A stretch of 64,000 nt of DNA from Calditrichota bacterium (GTDB lineage: Bacteria; Calditrichota; Calditrichia; RBG-13-44-9; J042), in the NCBI GenBank assembly GCA_013150955.1, contig JAADJD010000005.1, positions 31,096 through 95,095 of the forward strand. The letters run 5' to 3'. The notes under the pieces are model-generated. The model worked only from the letters and a program-made list of their open reading frames with translations, did no database searches and was not told where the DNA came from. Shown here in pieces: positions 27,111 to 51,658 of the stretch. The translations under genes and the position numbers were made by a program. Every line of letters starts with the position of its first letter. Position 1 is the first letter of the stretch.

Positions 27111-27148
27111 AATTTGTGCAAATCTATAAAAGAAAAACGAGGGGCCTG

Positions 27149-28669: not shown

Positions 28670-30038
28670 TGACGAAGAGCCCATCCTTCGGGTCATGGAA
28701 GCCAATCTGGTGCGGGAGGGTTACGAGGTAAAAACCGCCCGCGACGCGACCACAGCACTTCAGATCCTGCAACAGGATCAGGTGAGCACGGTGATTGTAG
28801 ACTACCTGATGCCGGGGATGAATGGCATTGAAATGATTCAGCGCATGAAGGAGATGCAGCTGGATGTGCCCGTCATTGTGGTCACCGCGTACGGTACGAT
28901 TGAACAGGCCGTACAGGCCATGAAGCTGGGGGCATTTAATTATCTGACCAAGCCCATCAATTACGATGAGTTGATTTCCATTGTTAAAAAGGCAGTGGAG
29001 CAGCATGCGCTGGCGCTGGAGGTGCAGCGGTTGCGACAGGAGATTACCTCGCAGTACGGATTCGATCAGATTGTGGGGCAAAATCAAAAGATGCAGGAGA
29101 TCTTCTCGCTGGTGCGGGATGTGGCAGAAACCGATGCCACGGTGCTGATCCGCGGTGAAACCGGTACCGGAAAAGAGCTCATTGCCCGGGCACTGCATTT
29201 CAATAGTCCACGGAAAAATAAACCTTTCGTGCGGGTGAATTGTCCCGCCATTGCAGAAACCTTGCTGGAGAGCGAGCTATTTGGCCACGAAAAAGGCGCG
29301 TTCACCGGGGCGATCAAGACGCGCATCGGACGCTTTGAGCAGGCCGATGGTGGCACCATATTTCTGGATGAAGTGGGCGATTTGCCCCTTCGCATCCAGT
29401 CGAAATTGTTGCGGGTGCTGCAGGAAAAGGAGTTTGAACGGGTTGGGGGCAATAAAACCATCAAGGTGGATGTGCGCATCATTTCCGCCACCAATAAGGA
29501 TCTGGAGGCAGAAGTGCAGGCCGGAAATTTTCGCCAGGATTTGTTTTACCGGCTGAATGTGGTGCCCATTGTGGTGCCGCCATTACGTGAGCGACCGGAT
29601 GACATCCCCCTGCTGGCCATGCATTTTTTGAAAAAATATGCCCGCCGATTCAACAAACCGGTTCATGAGATTTCTCCAGAAGGCATGGCGCTGCTGGTGG
29701 AACAGCCCTGGCCGGGAAATGTACGCCAGCTGGAAAATGTGATTGAACGGGCCATTATTCTGGAGAAAAGTGAACAACTACAACGGGATACCCTGCTCCG
29801 CTGCCTGGAATATAAACCCACCAATCTCTATTCCTTTCCCATCAATGCCCGTAAGCCCTTGAAAGAATTAAAAGAACAGCTGATTGAAAATTTCGAGAAG
29901 GAATACATCATCACCCTGTTGAAAGAGTTCAAGGGAAATATCAGCGCGGCTGCACGGGCATCGGGGATTCACTACAAAAATTTTTACGAGAAAATGCGCA
30001 AGTACAATATCCGCCGGGGGGATTATCAGGAGGAATGA
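28638..30038 (+). CDS. Sigma-54-dependent response regulator (NtrC family: REC, AAA+ activator, HTH)
   Basis: Receiver domain (VVDDEE...DYLMPGMNG); Walker A GETGTGKE; GAFTGA motif; C-terminal Fis-type HTH; overlaps kinase end. Confidence 0.9.
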   Translation: MKPKFTILVVDDEEPILRVMEANLVREGYEVKTARDATTALQILQQDQVSTVIVDYLMPGMNGIEMIQRMKEMQLDVPVIVVTAYGTIEQAVQAMKLGAFNYLTKPINYDELISIVKKAVEQHALALEVQRLRQEITSQYGFDQIVGQNQKMQEIFSLVRDVAETDATVLIRGETGTGKELIARALHFNSPRKNKPFVRVNCPAIAETLLESELFGHEKGAFTGAIKTRIGRFEQADGGTIFLDEVGDLPLRIQSKLLRVLQEKEFERVGGNKTIKVDVRIISATNKDLEAEVQAGNFRQDLFYRLNVVPIVVPPLRERPDDIPLLAMHFLKKYARRFNKPVHEISPEGMALLVEQPWPGNVRQLENVIERAIILEKSEQLQRDTLLRCLEYKPTNLYSFPINARKPLKELKEQLIENFEKEYIITLLKEFKGNISAAARASGIHYKNFYEKMRKYNIRRGDYQEE

Positions 30039-30120
30039 CCCCGGTCGATTTGCCCATCGGTCGAACAATGAATCTTTATCCACCAATCAGAAACTCCCTT
30101 CGCAGGGCATGCTGAGGTGT

Positions 30121-30320
30121 TTGCAATTATGCCAGATTATGCATTAGCCTACGAATTACACGAATTAACACCAATAAAAATAATAAAATGCACTGGATTC
30201 TATCTGGATGAAAATGTTTTCCATGAAAATGTTTTCCCGGATATATTCGCTATTTTATTGATTTTTTTCGAATTCATTCGCGTGATTCGTGGTTTAACGC
30301 TCTATTTGGGATTATGCCCA
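30121..30320. repeat. Dispersed MITE-like palindromic element
   Basis: CCAGATTATGCATTAGCCTACGAATTACACGAATTAACAC...TTCGCGTGATTCGTGGTTTAACGC...TTTGGGATTATGC. Confidence 0.75.
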
Positions 30321-30533
30321 CCTGCAAAGACGATGATTCTTTCCGTTCCAATTGAAGGATTTGAGCGACATTATGGTATTTAGGTTATAACGCCGGTGCC
30401 ATAATTATGGTAAAAATACCATAACTGTTGGATCGATGGAAACCCGCCTGAATGATCCGTTTTACTTGCAAATTCTATAAAATTTCAGGGGAATCCGTTT
30501 ATAGAGTGAAATATTTCACGAATGTGAAAATTC

Positions 30534-30549
30534 TGGAACGCCGTTTGCA
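30534..30549 (+). promoter_or_regulatory. Candidate sigma-54 promoter for the sulfur-oxidation (sHdr) cluster
   Basis: TGGAAC-GCCGT-TTGCA matches GG-N10-GC spacing and the TTGCA -12 element; about 25 bp upstream of ATG at 30574. Confidence 0.6.
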
Positions 30550-30573
30550 CATCACCGGGGCCAGGAGGAAAGG

Positions 30574-30807
30574 ATGAATCTGGTCGTCAGTAAAAAACTG
30601 GATTGTCGCTGGATGTACACCCCTCTGGCGGTGGTGCATCTGTATTTTGCTTTTCGGGAAATGCGTTCGGGAGAAATCATTGAATTGCTCATCAACAACG
30701 AGGAGAGTCATGCGGACGTGCAGAGCTGGAGCCGCATGACCGGAAATCCCATTCTGCAGGTGCGCGACAAACAGGAGCACCTGAGCCTATTTGTTCAAAA
30801 AAAATAA
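30574..30807 (+). CDS. TusA-like small protein lacking the canonical Cys-Pro-X-Pro motif
   Basis: Strong SD AGGAGGAAAGG; TusA-like length and C-terminal pattern (SWSRMTGNPIL) but LDCRWMYTP replaces the CPxP motif. Confidence 0.5.
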   Translation: MNLVVSKKLDCRWMYTPLAVVHLYFAFREMRSGEIIELLINNEESHADVQSWSRMTGNPILQVRDKQEHLSLFVQKK

Positions 30808-30818
30808 TGGAGGAAGCA

Positions 30819-31058
30819 ATGGCAGATATCCCAATTGCGGAAACCCTGGATTGTAGCGGCCTGCTGTGTCCCATGCCGGTCGTCAAAACCAACAAGGCCA
30901 TAAAAAATCTGAAAGTGGGGGAAGTACTGGAAATGATCGCCACCGATCCCGGATCCATTCCCGATATGGAGGCATGGGCCAAGCAAACCGGTCATGAGCT
31001 TCTGGAGGCAAAAGAAGAAGGGGGCAAGTACCGCTTTTTGATTAAGAAGACCCACTGA
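30819..31058 (+). CDS. tusA: Sulfur carrier protein TusA
   Basis: LDCSGLLCPMPVVKT motif; start at 30819 preferred because of GGAGGA SD. Confidence 0.8.
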   Translation: MADIPIAETLDCSGLLCPMPVVKTNKAIKNLKVGEVLEMIATDPGSIPDMEAWAKQTGHELLEAKEEGGKYRFLIKKTH

Positions 31059-31170
31059 TCGGGAAGGATGTGCCTCGGCAGGCAGGCCGTTTTCTGGAGA
31101 ACGCAGGTTTACAAAAAGGGAAAGTTGACGGTTCAAAAGTAACAAACCAATCAATTGAGAGGGGGCCAAA

Positions 31171-31683
31171 ATGTCGGAGAAAAACGGACGTCGTCGTTTA
31201 GCGATAATTGCCAGCAAGGGGACGCTGGACTGGGCATACCCGCCCTTTATTCTGGCCACAGCTGCAGGGGCCATGAACTGGGAGGTGGCCATTTTCTTTA
31301 CGTTTTACGGGTTGCCCCTGCTGAAGAAGAAGCTGGATGCTTCGGTCAGTCCACTGGGGAATCCCGCCATGCCCATGAAGATGCCCTTTGGGCCGCTGGA
31401 AAAAATTGATTTGCCGATTCCCAATCTGATCATGAGCAATGTGCCTGGATTCCAGCAGATGGCCACTGCATTGATGAAGAAAACCTTCAAGAAAAAAGGG
31501 GTGGCCAGCATTGAGGAATTGCGCGATATGGCCGTGGAAATGGACGTGCGGCTCATTGGCTGTCAGATGACCATGGACGTCTTTGGGTTCAAAAAGGAAG
31601 ATTTTATTGACGAGGCCGAAATTGGTGGAGCGGCCACATTTCTGGAATTTGCCGCCGACGCCAATGTTACCCTGTTTATTTGA
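31171..31683 (+). CDS. dsrE: DsrE/DsrF-family sulfurtransferase (DsrE3-like)
   Basis: DsrE fold pattern with conserved Cys in IGCQMTMD; located in the sHdr cluster. Confidence 0.7.
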   Translation: MSEKNGRRRLAIIASKGTLDWAYPPFILATAAGAMNWEVAIFFTFYGLPLLKKKLDASVSPLGNPAMPMKMPFGPLEKIDLPIPNLIMSNVPGFQQMATALMKKTFKKKGVASIEELRDMAVEMDVRLIGCQMTMDVFGFKKEDFIDEAEIGGAATFLEFAADANVTLFI

Positions 31684-31705
31684 AACAAAGCACAATGGTC
31701 AATAA

Positions 31706-32815
31706 ATGAAAGGGGCGTTTGTGGACAGGAAAAAACCATTGCGTTTAATCGATGCCGGAACCATTCCGTATCTGGAATCTCAGACTATTTATCACGCCGT
31801 GGCCCATGCCATGACCCCGGAAACGCCGGACACTGCCATCCTGGTCAGTCCCCAAACTCCGTACGTTTGCGTGGGATTCCATCAGGAGGTAGATCGTGAA
31901 GTGGATCTGGAATATTGTCAGGCGCATCAGATTCCGGTTACCCGTCGTGAGGTAGGCGGTGGGGCGGTGCTTCTGGATGCCAATCAAATTTTTACTCAAT
32001 GGGTGTTTCAGCCCGATCATGTTCCCCTGAAAGTGGTGGATCGGTTTCGGTTGCATGCGGAACCCATCATGGCCACTTATCGGGATTTTGGGGTGGAAGC
32101 CAATTTCCGGCCCATTAATGACATTCACGTAAGCGGGAAAAAGATTGGGGGCATGGGGGCAGCAGCCATTGGCAATGCAGAGGTCGTGGTCAGCTCGCTG
32201 ATGCTGGATTTCGATACCCGGACCATGGCCCGGGTGTTGAAAGTACCCAACGAGAAGTTCCGGGATAAGGTCTTTCAGGGACTGGAAAACTACATGACCA
32301 CCCTGAAAAAAGAGCTGGGGCAGATGCCGGATCGGGACGAAGTGAAACAACACTACGTCCGGCATCTGGAAGAGGTTTTGCAGCGGCCGGTCGAGTGGGG
32401 TGAGTTGACTCCTGGCGAAAAGGAGGTCATGGCCCAGTTAAATGCCCGCTTTGCCACCCGGGAATGGTTGTACCAGAAAGGTGGGCTGGTTCGAGGCGCC
32501 GTGAAGATCCACAGCGGTGTATGGGTGGGGGAAACGGCTTACAAGGCACCCGGTGGCCTGATTCGCATCACGCTCCGCATCCGGGAAAATACCATCGATG
32601 ACCTGGCCATTTCCGGGGACTTCACGTTTTATCCGCAACATCAGCTGGCGGCCTTCGAGGCCTTTTTGAAGGGCCATTCTCTGGAACCCGCCACCCTGCG
32701 GCGTACCATCGAGGCATTCTACCAGGAAACGGGCGTGCAAACACCGGGCATCGAAGTTGACCACTGGCTGACGGTTTTTGGTCAGCTGGCGGATGCGGTG
32801 GCAAAACACAGTTGA
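31706..32815 (+). CDS. lplA: Lipoate-protein ligase A-like (LplA/LipB/BirA family) for LbpA maturation
   Basis: GKKIGGMGAAAIG matches the lipoyl-AMP-binding Lys motif region of LplA; 369 aa; possible alternative GTG start at 31724. Confidence 0.75.
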   Translation: MKGAFVDRKKPLRLIDAGTIPYLESQTIYHAVAHAMTPETPDTAILVSPQTPYVCVGFHQEVDREVDLEYCQAHQIPVTRREVGGGAVLLDANQIFTQWVFQPDHVPLKVVDRFRLHAEPIMATYRDFGVEANFRPINDIHVSGKKIGGMGAAAIGNAEVVVSSLMLDFDTRTMARVLKVPNEKFRDKVFQGLENYMTTLKKELGQMPDRDEVKQHYVRHLEEVLQRPVEWGELTPGEKEVMAQLNARFATREWLYQKGGLVRGAVKIHSGVWVGETAYKAPGGLIRITLRIRENTIDDLAISGDFTFYPQHQLAAFEAFLKGHSLEPATLRRTIEAFYQETGVQTPGIEVDHWLTVFGQLADAVAKHS

Positions 32816-33074
32816 GTCCGTGAATGCATGGGAGAACAAAATACTGGGACTCCGAGAACTCAGCGAGATGTACCTGCAGGAAGCCGGAAAGTGGGTGTTG
32901 CTGGAAATTCTGGAAACCGATGCGCGCGGTCAGGCCAGTCGGGTCCGGGTGGTGAAATTGAGTCCCCGTAAGGATGATTTGCTGGACTACATGATGGAAC
33001 ACGACGAAGACTGGGATTGGCACAAACAATTCGTTATCGTCCACGCCGATCCCAAACTCTGTACGTTGCTGTAA
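32778..33074 (+). CDS. Small hypothetical protein; start uncertain
   Basis: ORF only; overlaps lplA end; no clear SD; retained because such small ORFs are conserved in sHdr loci. Confidence 0.3.
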   Translation: MVSWRMRWQNTVESVNAWENKILGLRELSEMYLQEAGKWVLLEILETDARGQASRVRVVKLSPRKDDLLDYMMEHDEDWDWHKQFVIVHADPKLCTLL

Positions 33075-33153
33075 AACAAAGCACCAGGGCAATCGGCCAA
33101 TTCATTAGATGGCAGATGAGGACAATCGATTGGAATTAAAATAAGCGAGGGAA

Positions 33154-33540
33154 ATGGATATGGAAGATCTGGAAGGCAAAAAGATTCTGGTAATTCAAAC
33201 CCACGGAGTGGATACGCCCACGCGGACGTATTCGCCGGTGTATTATGCCATTGCCGCGGCAGCCATGGAGATGGATGTGATGATCTGGTTTACCATGAAC
33301 GGTACCAATCAGTTGCGGAAAGGCGAGGCGGAAAAAATCGAATTGAAACCCGGCAGCGGGGTAACCCTGAAGACCTTGCTGGATCAGGCCCTGGACGCCG
33401 GGGTGAAATTATCCGTGTGCCAGCAAAGCATGGATCTGTGGGACATGAAGCCCGAAGACCTGATCGATGGGGTAAAGATCCTGGGAGCCACCAGCATCAT
33501 CGATCTGGCCCTGGAGGCCGATCACGTGATGTATTTCTAA
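33154..33540 (+). CDS. DsrE/DsrF-family protein (second copy, DsrE2-like)
   Basis: 128 aa; DsrE-like fold pattern with Cys in SVCQQSMD. Confidence 0.65.
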   Translation: MDMEDLEGKKILVIQTHGVDTPTRTYSPVYYAIAAAAMEMDVMIWFTMNGTNQLRKGEAEKIELKPGSGVTLKTLLDQALDAGVKLSVCQQSMDLWDMKPEDLIDGVKILGATSIIDLALEADHVMYF

Positions 33541-33685
33541 ATCAAAAAATTGGCACATTTGAGATTCAAATGAAGATGGGAAAACCGGGGAAATTAGAAA
33601 AGATTTCTTTGAGCTGGCCGGGAAGCCATAGCCGGGAATGTAAGCGATTGAGCACAATTTGAAAATTAAGTGAAGGAGTGCTGCT

Positions 33686-34144
33686 ATGTCAGACGTTGGG
33701 GAAGTTCGTGGATGCAGGATACCGAAGGACCTGTACTATTCGGTGGACGACCATACCTGGGTTCGCCTGAATGAGGATGGCACCGTCACCGTGGGTATGA
33801 CCGATGTGGCCCAGAATCTGGCCGGGCCGGTGCTGCATGCCAAGGTGAAGAAGGTGGGGTTGACCCGTGCCCGGGGAAAACCCATCGGCACCGTGGAAAG
33901 TGCCAAGTGGGTGGGGCCTATCAAAACACCGGTATCTGGAGAAATTGTGGAGGTGAACGAGAAATTGGCGGAAGACCCTCAATTGCTGAATCGCGATCCC
34001 TATGGTGAAGGCTGGGTGGTCAAAATGAAACCCACCAACTGGGACGAGGAGGTGAAGGACCTGGTCACCGGAGAAGAAGCGGTGGAAAAGTATCGGGAAA
34101 AGGTTGAACGGGAAGATATTAAAGCGTGTGACCATATCGAATAG
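33686..34144 (+). CDS. lbpA: Lipoate-binding protein LbpA (GcvH-like)
   Basis: GcvH-like with lipoyl-lysine motif VESAKW; GAAGGAG SD. Confidence 0.8.
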   Translation: MSDVGEVRGCRIPKDLYYSVDDHTWVRLNEDGTVTVGMTDVAQNLAGPVLHAKVKKVGLTRARGKPIGTVESAKWVGPIKTPVSGEIVEVNEKLAEDPQLLNRDPYGEGWVVKMKPTNWDEEVKDLVTGEEAVEKYREKVEREDIKACDHIE

Positions 34145-34312
34145 CGACGGTGAATGTTGCTGGATGCGGGTTGTGTGTACAACGTGACGGGGACGGGCAG
34201 AAAAAGGGTTGAGGACATGACATGCGTCAGGGCAAAGGGAATCCGCACCTGTTGACAGGGCAGGATTCTTTGCCCAAATCCATTGCAACGATGTAGCGTA
34301 AGGAGAGGGCTC

Positions 34313-35041
34313 ATGAATTTTGACATCAATTCAACGCCACTGGATTTAACCGGGGAAAAATACAGGGATGTTCCTTACGAGGAAAAGGAACGCTTGTTTA
34401 ACGAGATCAAAGCCGATGTCCGTTTTCACGATGTGCTGTATGGGTGTTATGAATGCGGGGTGTGTGTGGCGGCCTGTCCATCCGCCCGGTTCTACGACTT
34501 CAGTCCACGGGTCATTGCCCAGGCTGTGGCGCGGGAGGATGTGGAGCTGGTCTACACCCTGATGAACGATAGCATCTGGGACTGTTCGCAATGCTTTTCC
34601 TGCGATCGCTGTCCGCGGGGGAATTCGCCTGGTGGACTGATTACCCTGATGCGCGAGGTGGCGGTCAAAAACGGTCTGGAAACCGCCAAGGAAGCGCTGG
34701 AAGGCTACGGTCGCATTATTTACAAGATTATGTCCACGGGAACTCAGGTATCGCCCGATATGCTCCAGCCCAATGCCTTTCCGGACTGGGGACACCATGT
34801 GAATGAAATTGCGGAAAATCTGGATCTCTGGCGTCGTGCCCTGCCACCGGAAACCCTGCACACCGTGGAAACCGGCTGGAGTGTGAGCGAAAAAACCATC
34901 ATCGAACTTTACCTGATCTGGCACATGACCGGCGTAATGGACATGATCAAAGAAATCGATGAAGGCCTGTTCATGATTTTACAGGACGTAATGGAAGAAC
35001 GCCTGGAGGATGCCGGTTACGATGTTTTGTTCGATGAATAA
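34313..35041 (+). CDS. hdrC: Heterodisulfide reductase-like subunit C (sHdrC1), two 4Fe-4S clusters
   Basis: CYECGVCVAACP and CSQCFSCDRCP ferredoxin motifs; start at 34313 (AAGGAGA SD) rather than 34283. Confidence 0.85.
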   Translation: MNFDINSTPLDLTGEKYRDVPYEEKERLFNEIKADVRFHDVLYGCYECGVCVAACPSARFYDFSPRVIAQAVAREDVELVYTLMNDSIWDCSQCFSCDRCPRGNSPGGLITLMREVAVKNGLETAKEALEGYGRIIYKIMSTGTQVSPDMLQPNAFPDWGHHVNEIAENLDLWRRALPPETLHTVETGWSVSEKTIIELYLIWHMTGVMDMIKEIDEGLFMILQDVMEERLEDAGYDVLFDE

Positions 35042-35089
35042 AGGCGGTTGGACGCCAATCCACAGTCGAACTAAGTAAGGAGAACCATT

Positions 35090-36295
35090 ATGGGACAGCA
35101 AGTTATCCCGGTGGAAGAACTGATTAAATCCAAGAAAAAACCCGGTTTTAAATACACCCCCGAGGAAGCCCCCACGGAGGATTATCGAGACATCCTGTTT
35201 CAGCTGGAAAAAGAAGGCGAGCTGGAGGTCATTCGGGTTCCCGAGCCGTACGTGGAGGTAACCACCAAGTATGGTCGCAAAAAGAAAATTCCCCTGGAGC
35301 ATACCTGGCATCATAAGAGTTGCGGTCAGTGTGGGCACATTCCGGGATATTCCACATCGATTTTCTGGTTGAACCGCCAGTTTGGATTCGACTATGTGGA
35401 TCCCAGCGACCAGACCTCCTGTACAGCCTGGAACTACTACGCTTCGGCGACATCGAATGCGGAAGCCCAGGCGGCCGTGGCGGTTCGCAATTTTGCTGCA
35501 GCAGCGGAAACCGGCCGCTTCCCTCTGATCCACTGTGGTACCAGCTTCGGGCACTATAAAGAAGTGCGCCACGAACTGCTTCACCATCATGATCTGCGCC
35601 GCAAGGTGCGTGAGATTATGGAACGTCTGGGCAAAAAACTGGTCTTCCCGGAAGAAATTGTACATTACAGTGAGTGGGTTTATGCCATTCGCGATAAAAT
35701 TGCCGAGCGCCAGGTGATCGACATGAAACACATCGTGGCCTCGGTTCATCCCGCCTGTCATTATCACAAACTGGTGGAAGAGGATGCCATTTACGATCCC
35801 GAAATTTACGGGGCTCAGCGAACGGCCGTCGTGACCGGCACGCTAAAAGCCCTGGGAATCCAGATCGGGGAATATTCCAGCTGGTACGATTGCTGCGGAT
35901 TCGGATTCCGCCATATTCTGGTGTCGCGGGACTTTTCTCGTTCCTTTGCAGTGCAGCGGAAAATCGAAGTCATGAAGGAAGAAGCCAACCCCGATGTTGT
36001 CGTTACCCACGACACGGGATGCGTCACCACCCTGGATCAAAGCCAGTTTGCCGGAAAGGCACATGGCAAGAAGGTGGGCATCCCGGTCATGTCCGATTCC
36101 CAGATTGCTGCGCTGGCCATGGGGGCGCATCCCTACAAAGTGTTGCAGCTACACTGGCACAACACCGAAAACCGGCCGTTCCTGGAAAAACTGGGCATTG
36201 ACCCCGATGAAAAGTGGCGGGAATTCGAGGAAGCCCTGGAAAAATTGAAACGTGGTGAAAAACAATACTTAACCTGGGAGGATGCAGATGCCTAA
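35090..36295 (+). CDS. hdrB: Heterodisulfide reductase-like subunit B (sHdrB1), CCG domains
   Basis: Two Cys-rich CCG-type domains (CTAWNYY..., SWYDCCGFGF). Confidence 0.85.
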   Translation: MGQQVIPVEELIKSKKKPGFKYTPEEAPTEDYRDILFQLEKEGELEVIRVPEPYVEVTTKYGRKKKIPLEHTWHHKSCGQCGHIPGYSTSIFWLNRQFGFDYVDPSDQTSCTAWNYYASATSNAEAQAAVAVRNFAAAAETGRFPLIHCGTSFGHYKEVRHELLHHHDLRRKVREIMERLGKKLVFPEEIVHYSEWVYAIRDKIAERQVIDMKHIVASVHPACHYHKLVEEDAIYDPEIYGAQRTAVVTGTLKALGIQIGEYSSWYDCCGFGFRHILVSRDFSRSFAVQRKIEVMKEEANPDVVVTHDTGCVTTLDQSQFAGKAHGKKVGIPVMSDSQIAALAMGAHPYKVLQLHWHNTENRPFLEKLGIDPDEKWREFEEALEKLKRGEKQYLTWEDADA

Positions 36296-37352
36296 TCAAG
36301 ACATTCTCGTGATTGGAGGAGGCCCCGCAGGTCTGGAGGCCGCTCGTTCGATTGGAGACCTGGGATACAAAGCCATTTTAATCGAAAAACGGGATCGTCT
36401 GGGAGGTACACCGGACGAAGCCAGTTATGCCGCCTTAACCCCGGACCTTCGCAGTGCTGAGGAAGCCATGAACGCCATGATCCAGGCGGTGGAGAATAAT
36501 CCCAATGTAGACGTTCGACTGGGTACAACGGTGGTGGCTGCGGAGGGCAGTGTGGGAGACTTTAAAGTGACCATTCAAAATGGAAAGGGAAAAGAAACCC
36601 TGAACGTGGGAGCGGTGATCATTGCCACCGGCTTTCAACATTTCGATCCCGGTCGGGAAACCCAAAAATACGGGTACTATGAATATGAAGACGTCATTAC
36701 GCTGGTGGATTGCGAAAAGATGCTTAAAGCCCACCGTTTTGTGCGCCCTTCTGATGGGAAAAAGCCGGAGCGAGTATGCTTCATTCAGTGCGTGGGTTCC
36801 CGCGATCGCCGCATCGGGAATGAGTACTGTTCAAAAGTGTGTTGTGGAATCGCTTCCAAGGAGGCCATTGAAATTCGCCAGCTGGTGCCCGATTGCAAGG
36901 TGTTCATTTTTTACATCGACATGCGTATGTACGCATACTGGGAACCCGATCTGTACTGGAAGGCGCAGGAAGAACACAAGGTGAACTACGTTAAAGGCAT
37001 TGCCACGGAAATCGTCAAAAAAGGGGACAAATTGCTGGTGAAGGGAGAAGACACAACCCTGCGGCGTCCGTTTGAGATTCCCATGGACATTGTGATTCTC
37101 TCTGTGGGAATGGAGCCCAGTCAGGGAACCCGCGAAATGGCAAAGATCTTCGGGCTGAAGCAGAATAAATATCAGTTCATCGAGGCAGTCGGTGCCCCCA
37201 TGGACACGGTGAGCACGTCGGTGCCCGGTGTGTTTGCAGCTGGTGCCTGTACGGGGCCTGCGGATTTAGAGGATTCCATCTCCGCTGCCGGTCTGGCGGC
37301 CATGCGCGCCATTAAGGCCGTGCGGGAAAACGGTACCAAAAAAGCCAGCTAA
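36288..37352 (+). CDS. hdrA: Heterodisulfide reductase-like subunit A (sHdrA): FAD plus 4Fe-4S flavoprotein
   Basis: VIGGGPAGLEAA dinucleotide fold; Cys cluster CFIQCVGSRD...EYCSKVCCG. Confidence 0.85.
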   Translation: MPNQDILVIGGGPAGLEAARSIGDLGYKAILIEKRDRLGGTPDEASYAALTPDLRSAEEAMNAMIQAVENNPNVDVRLGTTVVAAEGSVGDFKVTIQNGKGKETLNVGAVIIATGFQHFDPGRETQKYGYYEYEDVITLVDCEKMLKAHRFVRPSDGKKPERVCFIQCVGSRDRRIGNEYCSKVCCGIASKEAIEIRQLVPDCKVFIFYIDMRMYAYWEPDLYWKAQEEHKVNYVKGIATEIVKKGDKLLVKGEDTTLRRPFEIPMDIVILSVGMEPSQGTREMAKIFGLKQNKYQFIEAVGAPMDTVSTSVPGVFAAGACTGPADLEDSISAAGLAAMRAIKAVRENGTKKAS

Positions 37353-37363
37353 AAGGAAAGCCA

Positions 37364-38110
37364 ATGGCGCTGTTCATCGACAAACAATCTACCAAGGAAT
37401 TTATGCTGGAGACGCTTTCCCGGATTACCCTGGAAGAACTGGAGCAAATCCAGGCAGACCTGCATTTGAAGAGTCAATGCGTGCAGGAAATGGTTCGGCA
37501 GGCATCGGGAGGGCGTTTTTCCGATGGCACCTTGCGGCAGCTGTTGCGGTGCGTATTTGCAACCCGGCGGCGCGCCAATAAAATTGCGGACCGGTACCCG
37601 GCGGACTATTTTGCCAGACACATCCAGAGCTTGCTGGATCCAGGCAAACCGGTGGAATGGCGTTTTCAGGAATTCTTTCACGCCTTCCCGGACATTGAGG
37701 CCAGCCAGCGCTATGATCTGGCCAGCGAGATCCTCTTTTTTTCCCATCCCGATCAATACTGGATGTGGACCCGCTGGATGTGGGATCCCCGCACCCGAAC
37801 CGGTTCGCTGCCCCTGGTGCTAATGGAACAGGTTTCCCTGGAAGGCAACTCCGAGGGAGAAATTTACCGGAAGGTGGGAGAAGCCGTCCGTCACCTTCAG
37901 GAAATCGGGCGGACGCGCGAAATCCCTTCCTTTCTGCAAACCGCGTATGGGGTGTACACCTATCTGGCCTGTGTTTATGTGATTTACAGTTACACCGTGC
38001 TGCGAATGCGCATGACACAGGAGTTCAACAAGGTGATGCCGAAATTACCCGAATTTATTCGAAGGCTGCTTGGCATTTATAGATTGGAGGAATTGAAACA
38101 TGCCAGTTGA
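37364..38110 (+). CDS. Conserved hypothetical protein of sHdr loci ('hyp' between hdrA and hdrC2)
   Basis: Position and size (248 aa) match the hdrC1B1A-hyp-hdrC2B2 arrangement; no cofactor motifs. Confidence 0.65.
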   Translation: MALFIDKQSTKEFMLETLSRITLEELEQIQADLHLKSQCVQEMVRQASGGRFSDGTLRQLLRCVFATRRRANKIADRYPADYFARHIQSLLDPGKPVEWRFQEFFHAFPDIEASQRYDLASEILFFSHPDQYWMWTRWMWDPRTRTGSLPLVLMEQVSLEGNSEGEIYRKVGEAVRHLQEIGRTREIPSFLQTAYGVYTYLACVYVIYSYTVLRMRMTQEFNKVMPKLPEFIRRLLGIYRLEELKHAS

Positions 38111-39362
38111 TCCCAAACAAATTCGCGCCAAAGACAAAGTGGTTGTCGATGGCATTGAGCTGACCAGCGAATGGAACCGCATGTTCGATCAGCGTCCGGT
38201 TTTTGATTATGACGTGGATGTTCTGGATAAAATCGCCAGCATTCCCGGAGCCGAGTCCATTGCCTGGTGTTATCAGTGTGCCCAGTGTGTGCCTGTGTGT
38301 CCGGTAAATGAGGTCGGGGATTACGGCCCGCGGAAGATTTACCGGCGATTGCAATTTGGAATCGATCTGCTTACGGATGATGAATTGTGGAAGTGCACCA
38401 CCTGCATGAATTGTTTGCGGGTATGCCCGAAGGATGTGAATATGATTGACATCATGCCGGCCGTCCGCGAAGAGGCCGTGATGGAAGGCCACGTGCCGGC
38501 CGAACTGCAAGAAGTGTTCGAAAACACGTTTGAATATGGCAATCCCCTGGGTGAATCGCCCCGCAAGCGGGCGGATTGGGTGAAGGACGCCGGCGTGCCG
38601 GTGCCAATCATGAAGGAGAAAAAAGAGGCGGATATTTTGTGGTTCGTGGAGTGTTACCCATCCTATCATCCCCGTGGGAAAGAAACCAGTGTAGCACTGG
38701 CCAAAGTATTGAATGCGCTGGGAGTCGATTTTGCCATTCTGGGGGTTGAGGAAAAGTGCAGCTGCGACTCGCAGCGACTGGCAGGCGAGCGGGGATTGTT
38801 CGAAGAATTTGCCGAAGAAAACATCAAAACTTTCAGCAAATACAAATTTAACAGGATTCTGGTGACCGATCCGCATGCGCTAAATGCCTTTAAAACGGAA
38901 TACCCCAAACTGGGCGGAGAATACGATGTGGTGCATTACACCACCTTTCTGGCACCAATGATGGATCGGCTGGAATTGAAGAACCGGTTGAATTATAAAG
39001 TGACCTTTCATGATCCCTGCTACCTGGGACGCCATCACGGGGAATTTGATGCACCGCGGCAGATCATTAATAGCCTGCCGGGAGTGGAGCTGGTGGAGAT
39101 GTGGCGTTGCCGGCAGAATAGCTTCTGCTGCGGAGGCGGGGGCGGTGGCATGTGGCTGGATGGCTTCATGGCCGATCACGTCAAGGAACGGCTTTCGGAA
39201 AATCGGGTTCGCGAAGCTGTGGAGACCGGTGCCGAGGTGCTGGTGGTGTGCTGTCCCTACGAAATTTCCCGGTTCGAAGATGCGGTCAAATCTACCGGCA
39301 ATGAGGGCAAACTGATCGTCAAGGATATCATTGAACTGGTGGTGGAGGCGATGGGCGTGTAG
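38100..39362 (+). CDS. Fused sHdrC2-sHdrB2 (N-terminal 2x[4Fe-4S], C-terminal CCG domains)
   Basis: CYQCAQCVPVCP and CTTCMNCLRVCP followed by CCG motifs (CSCDSQ, CYLGRHHG, CRQNSFCCGGGGG). Confidence 0.85.
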   Translation: MPVDPKQIRAKDKVVVDGIELTSEWNRMFDQRPVFDYDVDVLDKIASIPGAESIAWCYQCAQCVPVCPVNEVGDYGPRKIYRRLQFGIDLLTDDELWKCTTCMNCLRVCPKDVNMIDIMPAVREEAVMEGHVPAELQEVFENTFEYGNPLGESPRKRADWVKDAGVPVPIMKEKKEADILWFVECYPSYHPRGKETSVALAKVLNALGVDFAILGVEEKCSCDSQRLAGERGLFEEFAEENIKTFSKYKFNRILVTDPHALNAFKTEYPKLGGEYDVVHYTTFLAPMMDRLELKNRLNYKVTFHDPCYLGRHHGEFDAPRQIINSLPGVELVEMWRCRQNSFCCGGGGGGMWLDGFMADHVKERLSENRVREAVETGAEVLVVCCPYEISRFEDAVKSTGNEGKLIVKDIIELVVEAMGV

Positions 39363-39553
39363 CCGCCGGGGGTATCCGGAACCCGTGGTGAAGGACAACG
39401 AAGAAAGATCTCACGGTGCCGGAAACACGGGGGCAGGAAGACGGGGATCCCGCGGTTTCTGGCGATACGACGGGCGATTGGGTTGATCGGTAAGAAGATG
39501 AAAAATTAAAAATAAATCACAGCGTGAACGTTTAAGCGGCAAGGAGGTGTGGT

Positions 39554-40318
39554 ATGAACATCATTGTGCCACTTCGGCAGGTACCGGATCTGGTAGAAGA
39601 CCTGGAGATCGATGCTTCCGGGAAGGATCTGGATCGTGAATGGTTAAAATACAAAATCAATGAATTCGATGACCATGCGCTGGAAGAAGCATTGCTTTTG
39701 AAGGAAGACGTGGGCGGAACGGTTACCGCAATGGCTCTGGATGGGGATGATGTGGACAAGCTGTTATTTACGGCGGCTGCTAAAGGGGCGGATAAACTGA
39801 TTAAGGTGACCGGCGATTTTCCCCAACCGCTTTCCAGCCATGCCATTGCCAGAGCCCTGGCCAGTGCCATTCAGGGAATGGATTATCAGCTCATCCTCAT
39901 CGGCGTGCAGGCCGTGGATGAGCTGGACGGCCAGGTGGGGGTGTTGCTGGCCCATTATCTGGGTGTTCCCCACGTATCGGTGGTGACCGGGGTTCAGGTA
40001 ACCAATGGAAAGGCGGTGGTGCATAAGGAATATGCCGGTGGTGTGATGGGCGAGTTTGAGGTCACCTTACCGGCGGTGCTGGGGATTCAGGCGGCACGCC
40101 AGACCCCGCGATATGCACCGGTCAGCCGGGTGCGCATGGCCATGCGGAAATCGACCATTGAGGAGGTGAGCGCCAGCGATACCGCAGCGGGTGGGACGCC
40201 GGAAATTCGGAAACTATTCAAACCCGAAAAAGGTGCCGGCGCGCAGATGCTGGACGGTTCACCCGAAGAAGTGGCCGAAAAAATTGTGAGCATATTAAAA
40301 GAGAAGGGGATTGTGTAA
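39554..40318 (+). CDS. etfB: Electron transfer flavoprotein beta subunit
   Basis: EtfB family N-terminus (MNIIVPLRQVPD) and length; AAGGAGG SD. Confidence 0.9.
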   Translation: MNIIVPLRQVPDLVEDLEIDASGKDLDREWLKYKINEFDDHALEEALLLKEDVGGTVTAMALDGDDVDKLLFTAAAKGADKLIKVTGDFPQPLSSHAIARALASAIQGMDYQLILIGVQAVDELDGQVGVLLAHYLGVPHVSVVTGVQVTNGKAVVHKEYAGGVMGEFEVTLPAVLGIQAARQTPRYAPVSRVRMAMRKSTIEEVSASDTAAGGTPEIRKLFKPEKGAGAQMLDGSPEEVAEKIVSILKEKGIV

Positions 40319-41280: not shown

Positions 41281-41514
41281 GCAAAAACCATCCTCCCCAC
41301 CATCGCAACCCGAATCCGGGGTGTCCGTCCATGGTGTCGGGATGGCGGGTTACCATCCGGTATCCCGACCTTTCCCGGCAGAACAGGAGGGGAACCCATT
41401 CGGGGCAACAGGCTGGCAAGAAACGTTGTCCTGCCAGCAGGGAAATCATAAGCCATGCTGAGGAATGGTCATCCACAATACCATTGACGGGTCATTTAAA
41501 TTGGAGGAGCGCCC

Positions 41515-45995: not shown

Positions 45996-45997
45996 AC

Positions 45998-49818: not shown

Positions 49819-49935
49819 CGGTCTTCCTGGATCGATTCAAACATACCTCCCGGGGGCTTTCACCACCCGGGAGGATAATTTATCATTCAAAAAGGAATTA
49901 CCCAACAGGTAGCGGTAGATTTTTTCTTTATCGCA

Positions 49936-50757: not shown

Positions 50758-50797
50758 GTGTTCCTCCTATGATTGCTTATGTGTTTGTTGTATGATT

Positions 50798-51643: not shown

Positions 51644-51658
51644 GCTTATTCCGTGTTT

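What the first reader, a model, noticed from the sequence alone, without database searches (positions are those of the whole stretch)
30574..39362. Complete sHdr-LbpA sulfur-oxidation locus (tusA-like, tusA, dsrE, lplA, dsrE, lbpA, hdrC1B1A-hyp, fused hdrC2B2)
All hallmark genes of the bacterial sulfur-oxidising heterodisulfide-reductase-like system are present and in canonical order. This includes the GcvH-like lipoate-binding protein with lipoyl-Lys (VESAKW) and its dedicated lipoate ligase. The particulars here are a fused HdrC2-HdrB2 polypeptide, two DsrE-family genes and two TusA-like genes, one of which is degenerate.
Basis: partly seen in the sequence, partly recalled or inferred. Interest (0 to 1): 0.55.

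Follow-up and report, generated by a model that had tools for sequence, protein, structure and literature searches.

The report
Type II sHdr sulfur-oxidation gene cluster
This is a real but already-known kind of bacterial sulfur-oxidation gene cluster, the "type II" sHdr-LbpA system that feeds electrons through a flavoprotein into the membrane quinone pool, here in a Calditrichota genome; it runs about 4 kb past the stretch first flagged and appears to be switched on by a sigma-54 promoter.

Summary

The interpretation needs correction. This is not the canonical type I locus (shdrC1B1AHC2B2). It is the published type II system, shdrC1B1AH-shdrB3-etfBA-emo, and it runs on to 43599. The "fused HdrC2-HdrB2" is sHdrB3, the type II hallmark.

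The two DsrE genes are DsrE2 and DsrE3A. A conserved small gene (32793-33074) was missed; elsewhere it occurs fused to the lipoate ligase.

"Complete" is doubtful. The lbpA2-radical-SAM-lpl2-radical-SAM module lies between shdrB3 and etfB in eight close relatives. It is absent from all 64 kb here and from one independent relative (L094).

A sigma-54 -24/-12 promoter (30534-30549) and upstream palindromes are conserved in Calditrichota and KSB1 loci. A PAS histidine kinase and NtrC-type activator pair lies directly upstream. Bacteroidota loci carry an ArsR-type regulator instead.

Most likely function: oxidation of sulfane sulfur, with electrons passed through EtfAB and EMO to menaquinone. No type II system has been tested experimentally.

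Verdict: a new member of a known kind, of modest interest.

The parts
27116..28669 (+). Sensor histidine kinase: two predicted N-terminal TM helices, weak HAMP, PAS, HisKA, HATPase. The PAS domain has an invariant C-x3-C-x6-C-x2-C motif (C200, C204, C211, C214).
   Evidence: Pfam. The four Cys are invariant in 18 homologues down to 34% identity. Orthologues lie directly upstream of shdr clusters in L092 and in KSB1 loci.
28638..30038 (+). NtrC/AtoC-type sigma-54-dependent response regulator (receiver, AAA+ domain with GAFTGA, Fis-type HTH).
   Evidence: PF00158 at 257 bits, PF00072, PF02954. NCBIfam AtoC and NtrC models match below their cutoffs. GAFTGA is read from the translation. Homologues (57-64% identity) lie upstream of shdr in KSB1 loci L005, L011 and L018; L092 has the same kinase-regulator pair.
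30370..30424 (+). Candidate upstream activator sites: ATTATGGTATTTAGGTTATAACGC and the palindromic TGCCATAATTATGGTAAAAATACCATAA.
   Evidence: Inverted repeats. They form a conserved island in otherwise diverged intergenic DNA of 5 related loci. Binding by the regulator is inferred.
30505..30518 (+). Perfect palindrome GTGAAATATTTCAC just upstream of the promoter. Its role is unknown; a second regulator or IHF-like site is possible.
   Evidence: Sequence. Partly conserved in relatives.
30534..30549 (+). Sigma-54 -24/-12 promoter TGGAACGCCGTTTGCA. It starts 40 nt before the ATG at 30574.
   Evidence: One mismatch to TGGCAC-N5-TTGCW. A TGG-N9-TGC element occurs at the operon start of all 11 Calditrichota/KSB1 loci examined besides the window and in 0 of 6 Bacteroidota loci. 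It starts 40 nt before the first gene in L089, L090 and L091, as in the window.
30574..30807 (+). TusA-like protein without the active-site cysteine (Thr16 replaces the Cys of CPxP).
   Evidence: PF01206 at 43 bits. Cys-less orthologues occur at the same position in Calditrichota loci L001, L006 and L008.
30807..31058 (+). TusA sulfur carrier, active-site Cys21 (LLCPMP).
   Evidence: PF01206 at 98 bits. Cys21 is conserved in 98% of 59 orthologues.
31171..31683 (+). DsrE2-type sulfur transferase, soluble (no TM segment), Cys131.
   Evidence: NF047629 at 220 bits, cutoff 210. Best solved relatives are 2QS7 and 3PNX. Cys131 is 100% conserved. No hydrophobic segment.
31706..32815 (+). Lipoate:protein ligase with Lpl(AB) architecture, catalytic Lys146.
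   Evidence: PF21948 at 134 bits plus PF10437. LplB model hit at 278-352. Lys146 is 97% conserved.
32793..33074 (+). Conserved small protein (about 75-aa core) of unknown function, probably a partner of the ligase. Invariant Y27, W34, E38, K60, P87, C90. An alternative TTG start is at 32778.
   Evidence: Present between lpl and dsrE3A in 15 FCB-group loci. No Pfam or NCBIfam family. 32 representative clusters among 1.84 billion proteins, one of which (P0157, 453 aa) is a ligase-small-protein fusion. AF2 model pLDDT 83.7, no PDB fold match.
33154..33540 (+). DsrE3A-type sulfur transferase, Cys89.
   Evidence: Full-length match to 3MC3, the S. solfataricus DsrE3A crystal structure (82 bits). Cys89 is 100% conserved.
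33686..34144 (+). LbpA, a GcvH-like lipoate-binding protein. Lipoyl-Lys74 is the codon at 33905-33907.
   Evidence: PF01597 at 139 bits. Lys74 aligns with the lipoyl-Lys of GcvH structures. Invariant in 68 orthologues.
34283..35041 (+). sHdrC1, a two-[4Fe-4S] ferredoxin-like subunit. The likely true start is the ATG at 34313.
   Evidence: Fer4 families and HdrC models match below cutoff. All 8 Cys are 100% conserved. Relatives are 234-247 aa.
35090..36295 (+). sHdrB1, the proposed catalytic CCG-domain subunit.
   Evidence: PF02754 and HdrB models. Aligns with solved HdrB. Cys78, 81, 111, 149, 223, 268, 269 and 311 are invariant in 70 orthologues.
36282..37352 (+). sHdrA, a short FAD/[4Fe-4S] flavoprotein.
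   Evidence: Best solved relative is 6TJR at 308.7 bits over the full length. Methanogen HdrA gives 214 bits or less in two pieces. Cys170, 183, 187 and 188 are 99-100% conserved.
37364..38110 (+). sHdrH, the conserved hypothetical protein of shdr clusters.
   Evidence: No family. Present at this position in 76 loci.
38100..39362 (+). sHdrB3, an HdrC2-like two-[4Fe-4S] domain fused to an HdrB2-like part with only one complete CCG site.
   Evidence: Fer4 plus CCG. The N-terminal part matches HdrC 5ODC_C and the C-terminal part matches EtfD 9OJN. The 8 cubane Cys plus His259 and Cys307, 343, 344 and 385 are invariant. The N-terminal CCG Cys185, 220 and 222 are only 35-48% conserved.
39554..40318 (+). 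EtfB, electron-transfer flavoprotein beta subunit.
   Evidence: PF01012. NF040731 matches below cutoff. Syntenic with shdr in most loci.
40318..41280 (+). EtfA, electron-transfer flavoprotein alpha subunit.
   Evidence: PF01012 plus PF00766. Syntenic.
41515..43599 (+). EMO/EtfD-type membrane ETF:menaquinone oxidoreductase: NarI-like TM domain, haem b ligands His84 and His257, two cubane clusters, one noncubane cluster.
   Evidence: Best solved relative is M. smegmatis EtfD 9OJN (277 bits, both domains). Haem and cluster ligands are invariant in 55 orthologues. The four Cys ligands of the EtfD linear [3Fe-4S] cluster are D/N/D/S here (with PMC13083937).

Best explanation
The region 27116-43599 is a type II sHdr-LbpA sulfur-oxidation cluster from a Calditrichota bacterium, with its own regulatory genes upstream. 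The proposed working model has five steps.

1. Cytoplasmic sulfane sulfur (persulfide or thiosulfonate) is picked up by DsrE2 (Cys131) and DsrE3A (Cys89) and passed to TusA (Cys21).
2. It is then handed to the sHdrA-B1-C1-B3 complex, which works together with lipoylated LbpA (Lys74) and oxidises it to sulfite.
3. The electrons leave through EtfAB to the membrane protein EMO. There they pass a noncubane cluster, two cubane clusters and haem b, and reduce menaquinone.
4. LbpA is modified by the Lpl(AB)-type ligase in the cluster, probably helped by the small 93-aa protein. In this lineage lipoate is supplied by scavenging or by enzymes encoded elsewhere, because the cluster has no lipoyl synthase.
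5. The operon is transcribed from a sigma-54 promoter activated by the adjacent NtrC-type regulator. That regulator is controlled by a PAS kinase carrying a four-cysteine motif.

Shown here: gene identities, gene order, catalytic-residue conservation and promoter conservation. Inferred: substrate, direction of electron flow, the lipoylation route, and which regulator binds the promoter.
For: Type II definition. PMC11094781 requires shdrC1B1AHB3 plus etfAB in one syntenic cluster. All are present and contiguous on one strand.

sHdrA. It is of the sulfur-oxidiser type: 6TJR gives 308.7 bits over the full length, against 214 bits or less in two fragments for methanogen HdrA.

sHdrB3. It has one conserved CCG site and a degenerate N-terminal one. 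This matches the published description that it binds only one noncubane cluster.

Synteny. C1-B1-A-H-B3 plus etfBA-emo recurs in Calditrichota, KSB1, Bacteroidota, Planctomycetota, Chloroflexota, Actinomycetota, Marinisomatota, Dormibacterota, Bacillota and Gemmatimonadota.

Sulfur link. The active-site Cys of TusA, DsrE2 and DsrE3A are 98-100% conserved. soxYZ lies directly upstream in relative L001.

EMO. Both domains match EtfD 9OJN, and the haem b and FeS ligands are invariant. EtfD and EMO are experimentally shown ETF:menaquinone oxidoreductases (PMC13083937; preprint). A complete classical menaquinone biosynthesis operon lies immediately downstream on the other strand.

Regulation.
- The -24/-12 element starts 40 nt before the first gene in the window, L089, L090 and L091.
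- One such element is present at the operon start in all 11 Calditrichota/KSB1 loci examined besides the window, and in 0 of 6 Bacteroidota loci.
- It is flanked by a conserved palindromic island about 110-165 nt upstream.
- The kinase and sigma-54 regulator are adjacent to the cluster in the window, L092 and three KSB1 loci.
Against: - No type II sHdr system has been tested genetically or biochemically. [quoted passage not shown] In Thermomicrobium roseum the homologous cluster is induced in nutrient-limited persistence and its role is unvalidated.
- Calditrichota are not established sulfur oxidisers.
- No sulfide- or thiosulfate-oxidising enzyme, sulfite-oxidising enzyme or sulfur importer was found in the 64-kb window.
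- The LipS1/S2-type radical-SAM genes that accompany sLpl(AB) ligases "almost always" (PMC10332631) are absent here, so lipoylation of LbpA is unproven.
- In one relative's genome (GCA_054017675.1) the orthologous two-component system lies on another contig, although the promoter is retained. Kinase-operon pairing therefore rests on adjacency in only some genomes.
- sHdrB1 has 4 rather than 5 Cys per CCG domain compared with methanogen HdrB. I could not compare it directly with type I sHdrB1.
Confidence: 0.75

Rival explanations
1. One reading: a canonical (type I) sHdr-LbpA locus, shdrC1B1AHC2B2, complete within 30574-39362. Electrons would leave via lipoamide and dihydrolipoamide dehydrogenase to NAD+, and the C2-B2 fusion would be a local peculiarity.
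For: The core genes C1, B1, A and H and the LbpA, ligase, TusA and DsrE genes are shared between both types.
Against: - C2 and B2 are one polypeptide with a degenerate first CCG site in 79 orthologues.
- etfB, etfA and emo follow on the same strand and are syntenic across phyla.
- This is exactly the published type II definition.
- sHdrA is only 42% identical to the type I reference 6TJR, against 54-94% to orthologues in type II loci.
Confidence: 0.03
2. The same proteins run in the opposite direction or on another substrate. Electrons from menaquinol or from acyl-CoA oxidation via EtfAB would be used to reduce a disulfide, polysulfide or protein persulfide. Alternatively, the system oxidises organic thiols for detoxification or persistence rather than for dissimilatory energy gain.
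For: - Hdr-type CCG enzymes are reversible in principle.
- EMO in Syntrophus works against the potential gradient.
- The T. roseum homologue is induced in starvation, and its authors proposed thiol oxidation.
- A fadB-like gene lies directly upstream of the cluster in relatives L089 and L095.
- The window lacks any upstream sulfur-oxidising enzyme.
Against: - Organisms with type II clusters include known sulfur oxidisers such as Sulfobacillus.
- The obligatory partnership with TusA, DsrE and LbpA mirrors the genetically proven type I oxidative pathway.
- soxYZ is adjacent in L001.
- The window's EMO lacks the distal FeS cluster of EtfD/EMO, and its distal-haem His is only partly conserved. This argues weakly against a specialised reverse-loop machine.
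Confidence: 0.15
3. etfBA-emo is an ordinary fatty-acid beta-oxidation electron-entry module that merely lies next to an Hdr-like cluster, with no functional coupling.
For: EMO/EtfD homologues are the ETF:menaquinone link for beta-oxidation in menaquinone-containing bacteria. A thiolase and an acyl-CoA synthetase-like gene occur elsewhere in the window.
Against: - Adjacency of etfBA-emo to shdrB3 is conserved in at least 55 loci from at least 10 phyla, despite rearrangement of everything else.
- No acyl-CoA dehydrogenase lies in the cluster.
- In the window only 191 nt separate shdrB3 from etfB, and no separate sigma-54 or convincing sigma-70 promoter was seen there.
Confidence: 0.05

Closest known systems
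Type II sHdr-LbpA system (shdrC1B1AHB3-etfAB-emo). Described by Justice 2014, Cao 2018 and Kuempel 2024, as cited in Tanabe et al. 2024 (PMC11094781).
   Same: Same core genes in the same order. sHdrB3 is a C2+B2 fusion with one complete noncubane site. etfBA and emo are in the cluster. TusA and DsrE3A are the accompanying sulfur transferases. An LbpA and a dedicated ligase are present.
   Different: - Host phylum: Calditrichota is not named in the main text of the two papers read, and their supplementary tables were not available.
- An extra Cys-less TusA paralogue.
- A conserved 93-aa ligase-associated protein.
- Sigma-54 and two-component control.
- No LipS1/S2, second LbpA or second ligase in the cluster or anywhere in the window.
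Type I sHdr-LbpA system of Hyphomicrobium denitrificans and Aquifex aeolicus (shdrC1B1AHC2B2; sHdrA structure 6TJR).
   Same: sHdrA has the same short architecture and [4Fe-4S] cysteines (42% identity, full-length alignment). Shared components are C1, B1 and H, LbpA with lipoyl-Lys, the TusA/DsrE sulfur relay and an Lpl(AB)-type ligase.
   Different: C2 and B2 are separate genes in type I. Type I has no Etf or EMO, and electrons are thought to reach NAD+ via lipoamide. Regulation in H. denitrificans is by the ArsR-type repressors sHdrR and SoxR (abstracts listed), not sigma-54.
EMO/EtfD ETF:(methyl)menaquinone oxidoreductase (M. smegmatis EtfD, PDB 9OJN; Syntrophus aciditrophicus EMO).
   Same: Five-helix NarI-like membrane domain with conserved proximal haem b histidines, two cubane [4Fe-4S] sites, a C-terminal CCG noncubane site with the His ligand, and pairing with EtfAB.
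   Different: All four Cys ligands of the distal cluster (linear [3Fe-4S] in EtfD, [4Fe-5S] in SaEMO) are replaced by D/N/D/S. There is no long disordered C-terminal tail. The context is sulfur rather than fatty-acid oxidation.
Methanogen HdrABC heterodisulfide reductase (PDB 5ODC and others).
   Same: Shared folds and cofactor-binding motifs of the HdrA core, HdrB CCG domains and HdrC ferredoxin.
   Different: HdrA here is 356 aa against about 650 aa and lacks the inserted and terminal ferredoxin domains. sHdrB1 has 4 rather than 5 Cys per CCG domain. There is no MvhD or hydrogenase partner. The cluster carries sulfur-carrier and lipoate genes instead.
sLpl(AB)-LipS1/LipS2 lipoate assembly pathway (Tanabe et al. 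2023, PMC10332631).
   Same: A ligase with a fused LplA catalytic domain and LplB accessory domain, encoded next to its LbpA substrate.
   Different: The two radical-SAM lipoyl synthases that almost always accompany such ligases are absent from this window. Relatives carry two ligase and LbpA paralogue pairs, and only the pair without radical-SAM neighbours is kept here.

Membership tests
Type II sHdr system | shdrC1, shdrB1, shdrA and shdrH are syntenic on one strand. | tested here: met
   Contiguous + strand ORFs at 34283-38110 with the expected domains. The same order occurs in about 70 loci.
Type II sHdr system | shdrB3: one gene fusing the HdrC2-like ferredoxin with an HdrB2-like part that can bind only one noncubane cluster. 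| tested here: met
   Fer4 plus CCG in one 420-aa protein. The second CCG site is invariant, and the Cys of the first site are 35-48% conserved.
Type II sHdr system | etfAB is in the same syntenic cluster (the criterion used in PMC11094781 and PMC11582611). | tested here: met
   etfB at 39554-40318 and etfA at 40318-41280, starting 191 nt after shdrB3.
Type II sHdr system | An emo (ETF:menaquinone oxidoreductase) gene is in the cluster. | tested here: met
   41515-43599. 277 bits to EtfD 9OJN, with the ligands conserved.
Type II sHdr system | Dissimilatory oxidation of sulfane sulfur to sulfite, shown experimentally. | not testable with these tools
The literature has no direct test for any type II system.
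sHdr-LbpA pathway (either type) | sHdrA of the short sulfur-oxidiser type rather than the methanogen or sulfate-reducer type. | tested here: met
   6TJR gives 308.7 bits over the full length; methanogen HdrA gives 214 bits or less in two pieces. The protein is 356 aa. No full phylogeny was run.
sHdr-LbpA pathway (either type) | A GcvH-like LbpA with a conserved lipoyl-lysine. | tested here: met
   Lys74 aligns with the lipoyl-Lys of GcvH and is invariant in 68 orthologues.
sHdr-LbpA pathway (either type) | Accompanying TusA and DsrE-type sulfur transferases with active-site cysteines. | tested here: met
   TusA Cys21, DsrE2 Cys131 and DsrE3A Cys89.
sHdr-LbpA pathway (either type) | A dedicated lipoate assembly set, sLpl(AB) plus LipS1 and LipS2, usually in or near the cluster. 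| tested here: not met
   The ligase is present. No radical-SAM homologue occurs anywhere in the 64 kb (tblastn). Eight close relatives have the module between shdrB3 and etfB. The rest of the genome could not be searched. This is an accessory feature, not a defining one.
Type I sHdr system | Separate shdrC2 and shdrB2 genes, with no etfAB-emo. | tested here: not met
   A single fused gene at 38100-39362, followed by etfBA-emo.
Methanogen-type HdrABC | An HdrA of about 650 aa with N-terminal, inserted and C-terminal ferredoxin domains; an HdrB with two 5-Cys CCG motifs; an MvhD or Flx partner. | tested here: not met
   sHdrA is 356 aa and aligns only to the thioredoxin-reductase core. sHdrB1 lacks one Cys of each CC/CxxC pair in the alignment to HdrB. 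No such partner gene is in the window.
EMO/EtfD family | A NarI-like TM domain with haem b His ligands, two cubane clusters and two CCG domains carrying two unusual clusters. | tested here: inconclusive
   His84 and His257, the 8 cubane Cys and the noncubane site (His535, Cys585, 620, 621, 660) are invariant. The ligands of the second (distal) cluster are D/N/D/S. It is therefore a member with one cluster fewer.
Sigma-54-dependent operon | A -24 GG and -12 GC element with canonical spacing, plus an enhancer-binding protein with GAFTGA. | tested here: met
   TGGAACGCCGTTTGCA at 30534-30549, conserved in 11 related loci. The regulator has PF00158 and GAFTGA. Actual sigma-54 dependence was not tested.

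The most novel reading that the evidence does not exclude
The FCB-group (Calditrichota, KSB1, Bacteroidota) version of the type II sHdr system contains components that have not been described.
- A 75-93-aa protein with an invariant C-terminal cysteine that is a partner of the lipoate ligase. It is fused to the ligase in one natural protein. It could act as a specificity factor or as a sulfur or lipoyl carrier.
- A cysteine-less TusA paralogue.
- A sigma-54 and four-cysteine PAS kinase circuit that replaces the ArsR-type sulfane-sulfur repressors.

The lineage represented by this window has shed the whole lbpA2-LipS1/S2-lpl2 module. This would show that one LbpA and ligase pair fed by scavenged lipoate (or by LipA) is enough for the pathway.
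Probability: 0.25. Interest if true: 0.5.

Novelty: new member of a known kind. Interest (0 to 1): 0.33.

Why it matters
Type II sHdr systems are known from genomes but have never been tested. They are easy to overlook. For example, a large sediment survey screened only for the type I six-gene order and assigned sHdr almost entirely to Proteobacteria (PMC12345210).

Here a complete core cluster sits in a Calditrichota genome. Near-identical architectures occur in KSB1 and in common heterotrophic Bacteroidota (Saprospiraceae, Cyclobacteriaceae). This suggests that cytoplasmic sulfane-sulfur oxidation feeding the menaquinone pool is more widespread among sediment heterotrophs than current surveys report.

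Three further points give concrete, testable handles on how the pathway is matured and switched on:
- the natural variant without a lipoyl synthase module;
- the ligase-associated small protein;
- the sigma-54 control region.

None of this changes the basic picture of the system.

Tried and rejected
- Locating the window's own contig. Looking up its proteins P0001 and P0012 found nothing on record.
- Looking for LipS1/S2 elsewhere on the same 125-kb contig. A metagenome scan with the L006 radical-SAM protein gave only three loci, none on that contig. The method needs exact peptide words, so this is not evidence of absence from the genome.
- Relics of the missing module. A sensitive blastn of the 191-nt shdrB3-etfB spacer against relatives found nothing.
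- Sigma-70 promoter and terminator scans of 30000-44000 were at or below shuffle expectation and uninformative.
- Sigma-54 consensus scan of the whole window. At 2 mismatches or fewer it gave 34 hits against 38 expected. Only position and cross-species conservation make the 30534 site credible.
- Fold search of the small-protein model against the PDB gave no significant match (best E 0.33, TM below 0.4). The AlphaFold-database library was unavailable.
- An apparent Lpl-small-protein read-through in L005 and L026 was an artefact of my script dropping stop codons. The real fusion is P0157.
- Supplementary tables of PMC11094781, which could show whether Calditrichota were already listed, are not held.
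- I could not obtain reference type I sHdrB1, C1, B2 or C2 sequences, so the direct comparison is limited to sHdrA (6TJR).
- The methanogen-type Hdr, Qmo and Flx readings were rejected on architecture and context.

Full report
OBSERVATION

The region 30574-39362 holds eleven of the twelve back-to-back + strand ORFs at the stated boundaries. Pfam and NCBIfam identify them as follows:
- a weak TusA-like protein (43 bits);
- TusA (98 bits);
- a DsrE2 protein (NF047629, 220 bits, above its curated cutoff of 210);
- a lipoate-protein ligase with an LplA catalytic domain and an LplB-like C-terminal domain;
- a second DsrE-family protein;
- a GcvH-family protein;
- an HdrC-like two-[4Fe-4S] protein;
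- an HdrB-like CCG protein;
- a 356-aa HdrA-like flavoprotein;
- a 248-aa protein with no family;
- a 420-aa protein combining a two-[4Fe-4S] ferredoxin domain with CCG domains.

The twelfth ORF (32793-33074, or 32778 with a TTG start) overlaps the end of the ligase gene.

sHdrA. It matches the crystal structure of Hyphomicrobium denitrificans sHdrA (6TJR) over its full length. The score is 308.7 bits, with 42% identity over 338 aligned positions. Methanogen HdrA chains match only in two pieces at 214 bits or less. They are about 650 aa long with extra ferredoxin domains that are absent here. The four [4Fe-4S] cysteines (Cys170, 183, 187, 188) are 99-100% conserved in 78 orthologues.

LbpA. 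Lys74 in VESAKW aligns with the lipoyl-lysine of solved GcvH proteins. It is invariant in 68 orthologues.

The sulfur-oxidiser assignment stands.

WHAT KIND OF sHdr SYSTEM

Three more genes follow on the same strand, 191 nt after the "fused HdrC2-HdrB2" gene:
- EtfB (39554-40318);
- EtfA (40318-41280);
- a 694-aa membrane protein with Fer4 and CCG domains (41515-43599).

Tanabe et al. 2024 (PMC11094781) distinguish two cluster types. Type I is shdrC1B1AHC2B2. Type II is shdrC1B1AHB3-etfAB-emo. [quoted passage not shown] EtfAB and EMO are proposed to carry electrons to menaquinone.

The window meets their operational definition, which is C1B1AHB3 plus etfAB in one syntenic cluster.

The residue data agree with this. 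Among 79 sHdrB3 orthologues:
- the eight cubane-cluster cysteines are invariant;
- the C-terminal CCG site (His259, Cys307, 343, 344, 385) is invariant;
- the cysteines of the N-terminal CCG site (Cys185, 220, 222) are only 35-48% conserved.

The fusion is thus the hallmark of a known type and not a local peculiarity. The locus ends at 43599.

THE SULFUR TRANSFERASES

- The 128-aa DsrE protein matches the S. solfataricus DsrE3A structure 3MC3 over its full length (82 bits).
- The 170-aa protein is a soluble DsrE2. It passes the NCBIfam equivalog cutoff, its best solved relative is 2QS7, and it has no hydrophobic segment.
- Their active-site cysteines (Cys89, Cys131) and TusA Cys21 are 98-100% conserved.
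- TusA plus DsrE3A is a usual partnership of type II systems.
- The first TusA-like gene lacks the catalytic cysteine, which is Thr16 here. So do its positional orthologues in three other Calditrichota loci. It is a conserved cysteine-less paralogue rather than a decaying gene.

EMO

The 694-aa protein matches both the membrane and soluble parts of M. smegmatis EtfD (9OJN) at 277 bits. The structure paper (PMC13083937) assigns the cofactor ligands. Mapped through the alignment and checked in 55 orthologues:
- the proximal haem b histidines (His84, His257) are invariant;
- both cubane clusters are invariant;
- the noncubane cluster with its histidine (His535, Cys585, 620, 621, 660) is invariant;
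- the four cysteine ligands of EtfD's linear [3Fe-4S] cluster are Asp, Asn, Asp and Ser here.

His239 corresponds to the distal-haem ligand of Syntrophus EMO. It is present here and in 36 of 55 orthologues.

A complete classical menaquinone biosynthesis operon lies immediately downstream on the opposite strand. It comprises menF, D, H, B, A, C and E plus ubiE/menG, at 45998-56477.

ORGANISM AND DISTRIBUTION

The identical sHdrB3 sequence is on record from a 125,469-bp contig of a MAG named Calditrichaeota bacterium. A T9SS sorting-domain protein in the window fits the FCB group.

A scan of one genome per species found at least 593 relatives of sHdrB3. That count may include paralogues.

In the 80 loci fetched, C1-B1-A-H-B3 with etfBA-emo recurs in ten phyla: Calditrichota, KSB1, Bacteroidota (Saprospiraceae, Lewinellaceae, Cyclobacteriaceae), Planctomycetota, Chloroflexota, Actinomycetota, Marinisomatota, Dormibacterota, Bacillota and Gemmatimonadota.

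The window's exact order is shared with the Calditrichota, KSB1 and Bacteroidota loci. That order is (tusA-like) tusA, dsrE2, lpl, small ORF, dsrE3A, lbpA, C1, B1, A, H, B3 ... etfBA, emo.

WHAT IS MISSING

Those relatives also carry a second module: lbpA2, radical SAM, lpl2, radical SAM and often a third radical SAM. It lies between shdrB3 and etfB, or after emo in KSB1. This matches the sLpl(AB)-LipS1/S2 lipoate assembly pathway of Tanabe et al. 2023. That paper states that LipS1/S2 are "almost always" present with such ligases and usually linked to them.

The window has no homologue of these radical-SAM proteins, and no second LbpA or ligase, anywhere in its 64 kb.

Eight relatives whose sHdrB3 is 94-96% identical have the module right after shdrB3: L006, L086, L087, L089, L090, L091, L095. 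(These are seven loci listed by name; the eighth count comes from the same set of calls.)

Colinear alignment shows that window 34287-39361 and 39542-41280 correspond to L091 4376-9449 and 14589-16324. A 5.1-kb module is therefore replaced by about 180 unrelated bases.

This is not an assembly artefact. An independent ENA contig, L094, carries the same direct shdrB3-etfB junction. Its sHdrB3 is 97% identical, and its DNA is 83.5% identical over 4.2 kb in a single alignment.

"Complete" is thus not established. Either the lipoyl synthase genes lie elsewhere in the genome, or LbpA is lipoylated from scavenged lipoate or octanoate by the retained ligase. That ligase has its catalytic Lys146 conserved.

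THE MISSED SMALL GENE

The ORF at 32793-33074 has homologues in the same position in 15 loci. Six residues are invariant: Tyr27, Trp34, Glu38, Lys60, Pro87 and a near-C-terminal Cys90.

It has no Pfam or NCBIfam family. A full HMMER scan of 1.84 billion representatives found only 32 clusters.

One of these, P0157 (453 aa), is a natural fusion of an LplA catalytic domain with this protein at its C-terminus. That fusion links the small protein functionally to the ligase.

An AlphaFold2 model is confident (pLDDT 83.7, alpha-beta-beta-alpha-beta-alpha) but has no significant PDB fold match. Its role as a specificity factor or a carrier is speculation.

REGULATION

Directly upstream lie two regulatory genes.
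- A PAS histidine kinase (27116-28669). Its PAS domain has a C-x3-C-x6-C-x2-C motif that is invariant in 18 homologues down to 34% identity.
- An NtrC/AtoC-type sigma-54 activator with GAFTGA (28638-30038).

The sequence TGGAACGCCGTTTGCA at 30534-30549 starts 40 nt before the first start codon. It has one mismatch to the sigma-54 consensus.

On its own this is weak. The whole window has 34 hits at 2 mismatches or fewer, against 38 expected. Cross-species evidence makes it credible.
- A TGG-N9-TGC element lies at the operon start in all 11 Calditrichota and KSB1 loci examined besides the window. It lies in none of six Bacteroidota loci.
- It starts 40 nt before the first gene in L089, L090 and L091, as in the window.
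- In an alignment of five related intergenic regions the conserved islands are this promoter, the ribosome-binding site, a GTGAAATATTTCAC palindrome just upstream, and a palindromic block at 30370-30424. That block includes TGCCATAATTATGGTAAAAATACCATAA. It lies 110-165 nt upstream, the usual place for enhancer sites.

The Bacteroidota loci instead carry an ArsR-type (HTH_20/HTH_5) gene. This resembles the sHdrR and SoxR repressors known from H. denitrificans (abstracts listed).

The kinase-activator pair is adjacent to the cluster in the window, in L092 (same upstream synteny, kinase 83% identical) and in three KSB1 loci. In genome GCA_054017675.1 the orthologous pair sits on another contig while the promoter is retained. 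The pairing is therefore likely but not proven.

MECHANISM

I commit to the published type II model with local additions.
- Sulfane sulfur is relayed from DsrE2 and DsrE3A to TusA, and then to the sHdr complex with lipoyl-LbpA.
- It is oxidised to sulfite.
- Electrons pass via EtfAB to EMO and menaquinone.
- The operon is transcribed from a sigma-54 promoter under a two-component system whose sensor may be redox- or sulfur-responsive.

Gene identities, synteny, ligand conservation and promoter conservation are shown. Substrate, direction, lipoylation route and regulator-site pairing are inferred.

The main uncertainty is that no type II system has been tested. In addition, the T. roseum homologue is induced in starvation with an unvalidated role. 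A reductive or thiol-detoxifying role cannot be excluded from sequence.

NOVELTY

The system is a member of a known, named type. The accessory features may be undescribed: the sigma-54 control, the cysteine-less TusA, the ligase-associated small protein and the loss of the lipoyl-synthase module.

Ecologically, at least one large sediment survey screened only for the type I gene order. Type II carriers among Calditrichota, KSB1 and Bacteroidota may therefore be under-counted.

Interest is modest.

Noticed in passing
window 30124-30315; also 3378-3546, 14330-14504, 17187-17281, 22617-22711, 26569-26785, 43651-43819, 44238-44428, 44845-45037, 45475-45665, 56762-57048, 58922-59292, 62153-62320: A dispersed intergenic repeat of about 190 bp (74-85% identical copies, at least 13 in 64 kb). 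It folds as one long hairpin (-60 kcal/mol, z = -6.1), like a MITE or REP-type element. One copy sits between the regulator gene and the shdr upstream sites and is absent from relatives there.
   Followed up: partly
window 43600-46000: A 2.4-kb non-coding stretch right after emo, made of about four tandem units of 610-630 bp. Each unit holds one copy of the 190-bp element, (AAATCCG)n heptamer tracts and a G+C-rich motif. Three copies of that motif (44147-44191, 44756-44800, 45385-45429, - strand) match Rfam Acido-Lenti-1 (RF01687) at 34.4 bits, just under the gathering score of 37.
   Followed up: partly
window 45998-56477 (- strand): A complete classical menaquinone biosynthesis operon (menE, menC, menA, menB, menH, menD, menF, then ubiE/menG) lies directly downstream of the menaquinone-reducing EMO gene. 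The adjacency may be coincidental.
   Followed up: no
window 60315-62090 and 62481-63287: Two multihaem cytochromes c (cytochrome c7/c3 families; 591 and 268 aa) lie near the end of the window. They suggest extracellular or periplasmic electron transfer capacity.
   Followed up: no
window 27116-28669 (PAS domain, residues 200-230): The histidine kinase PAS domain carries C-x3-C-x6-C-x2-C. The motif is invariant in homologues from Calditrichota, KSB1 and Nitrospirota (34-83% identity). It may be an Fe-S, metal or persulfide-sensing site.
   Followed up: partly
window 33686-34144 (LbpA residues 10, 148, 150): Besides the lipoyl-Lys, LbpA has conserved Cys10 (89%), Cys148 and His150 near its termini. 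I could not relate these residues to any described function.
   Followed up: no
L089 6328-6963, L090 6326-6961, L095 6328-6963: In three close relatives a 211-aa nitroreductase-family gene is inserted between shdrC1 and shdrB1. It is absent from the window and from L091.
   Followed up: no
L001 447-1333: In an 81%-identical Calditrichota relative, soxY and soxZ lie directly upstream of the shdr cluster. This links the cluster to periplasmic thiosulfate chemistry in that genome.
   Followed up: no
P0157 (453 aa, from the representative library): A natural fusion of a lipoate-protein ligase catalytic domain with the 93-aa small protein family encoded at window 32793-33074.
   Followed up: yes
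window 458-3266: An ExbB, ExbD, ExbD and TonB-like gene set at the start of the window, of ordinary appearance.
   Followed up: no
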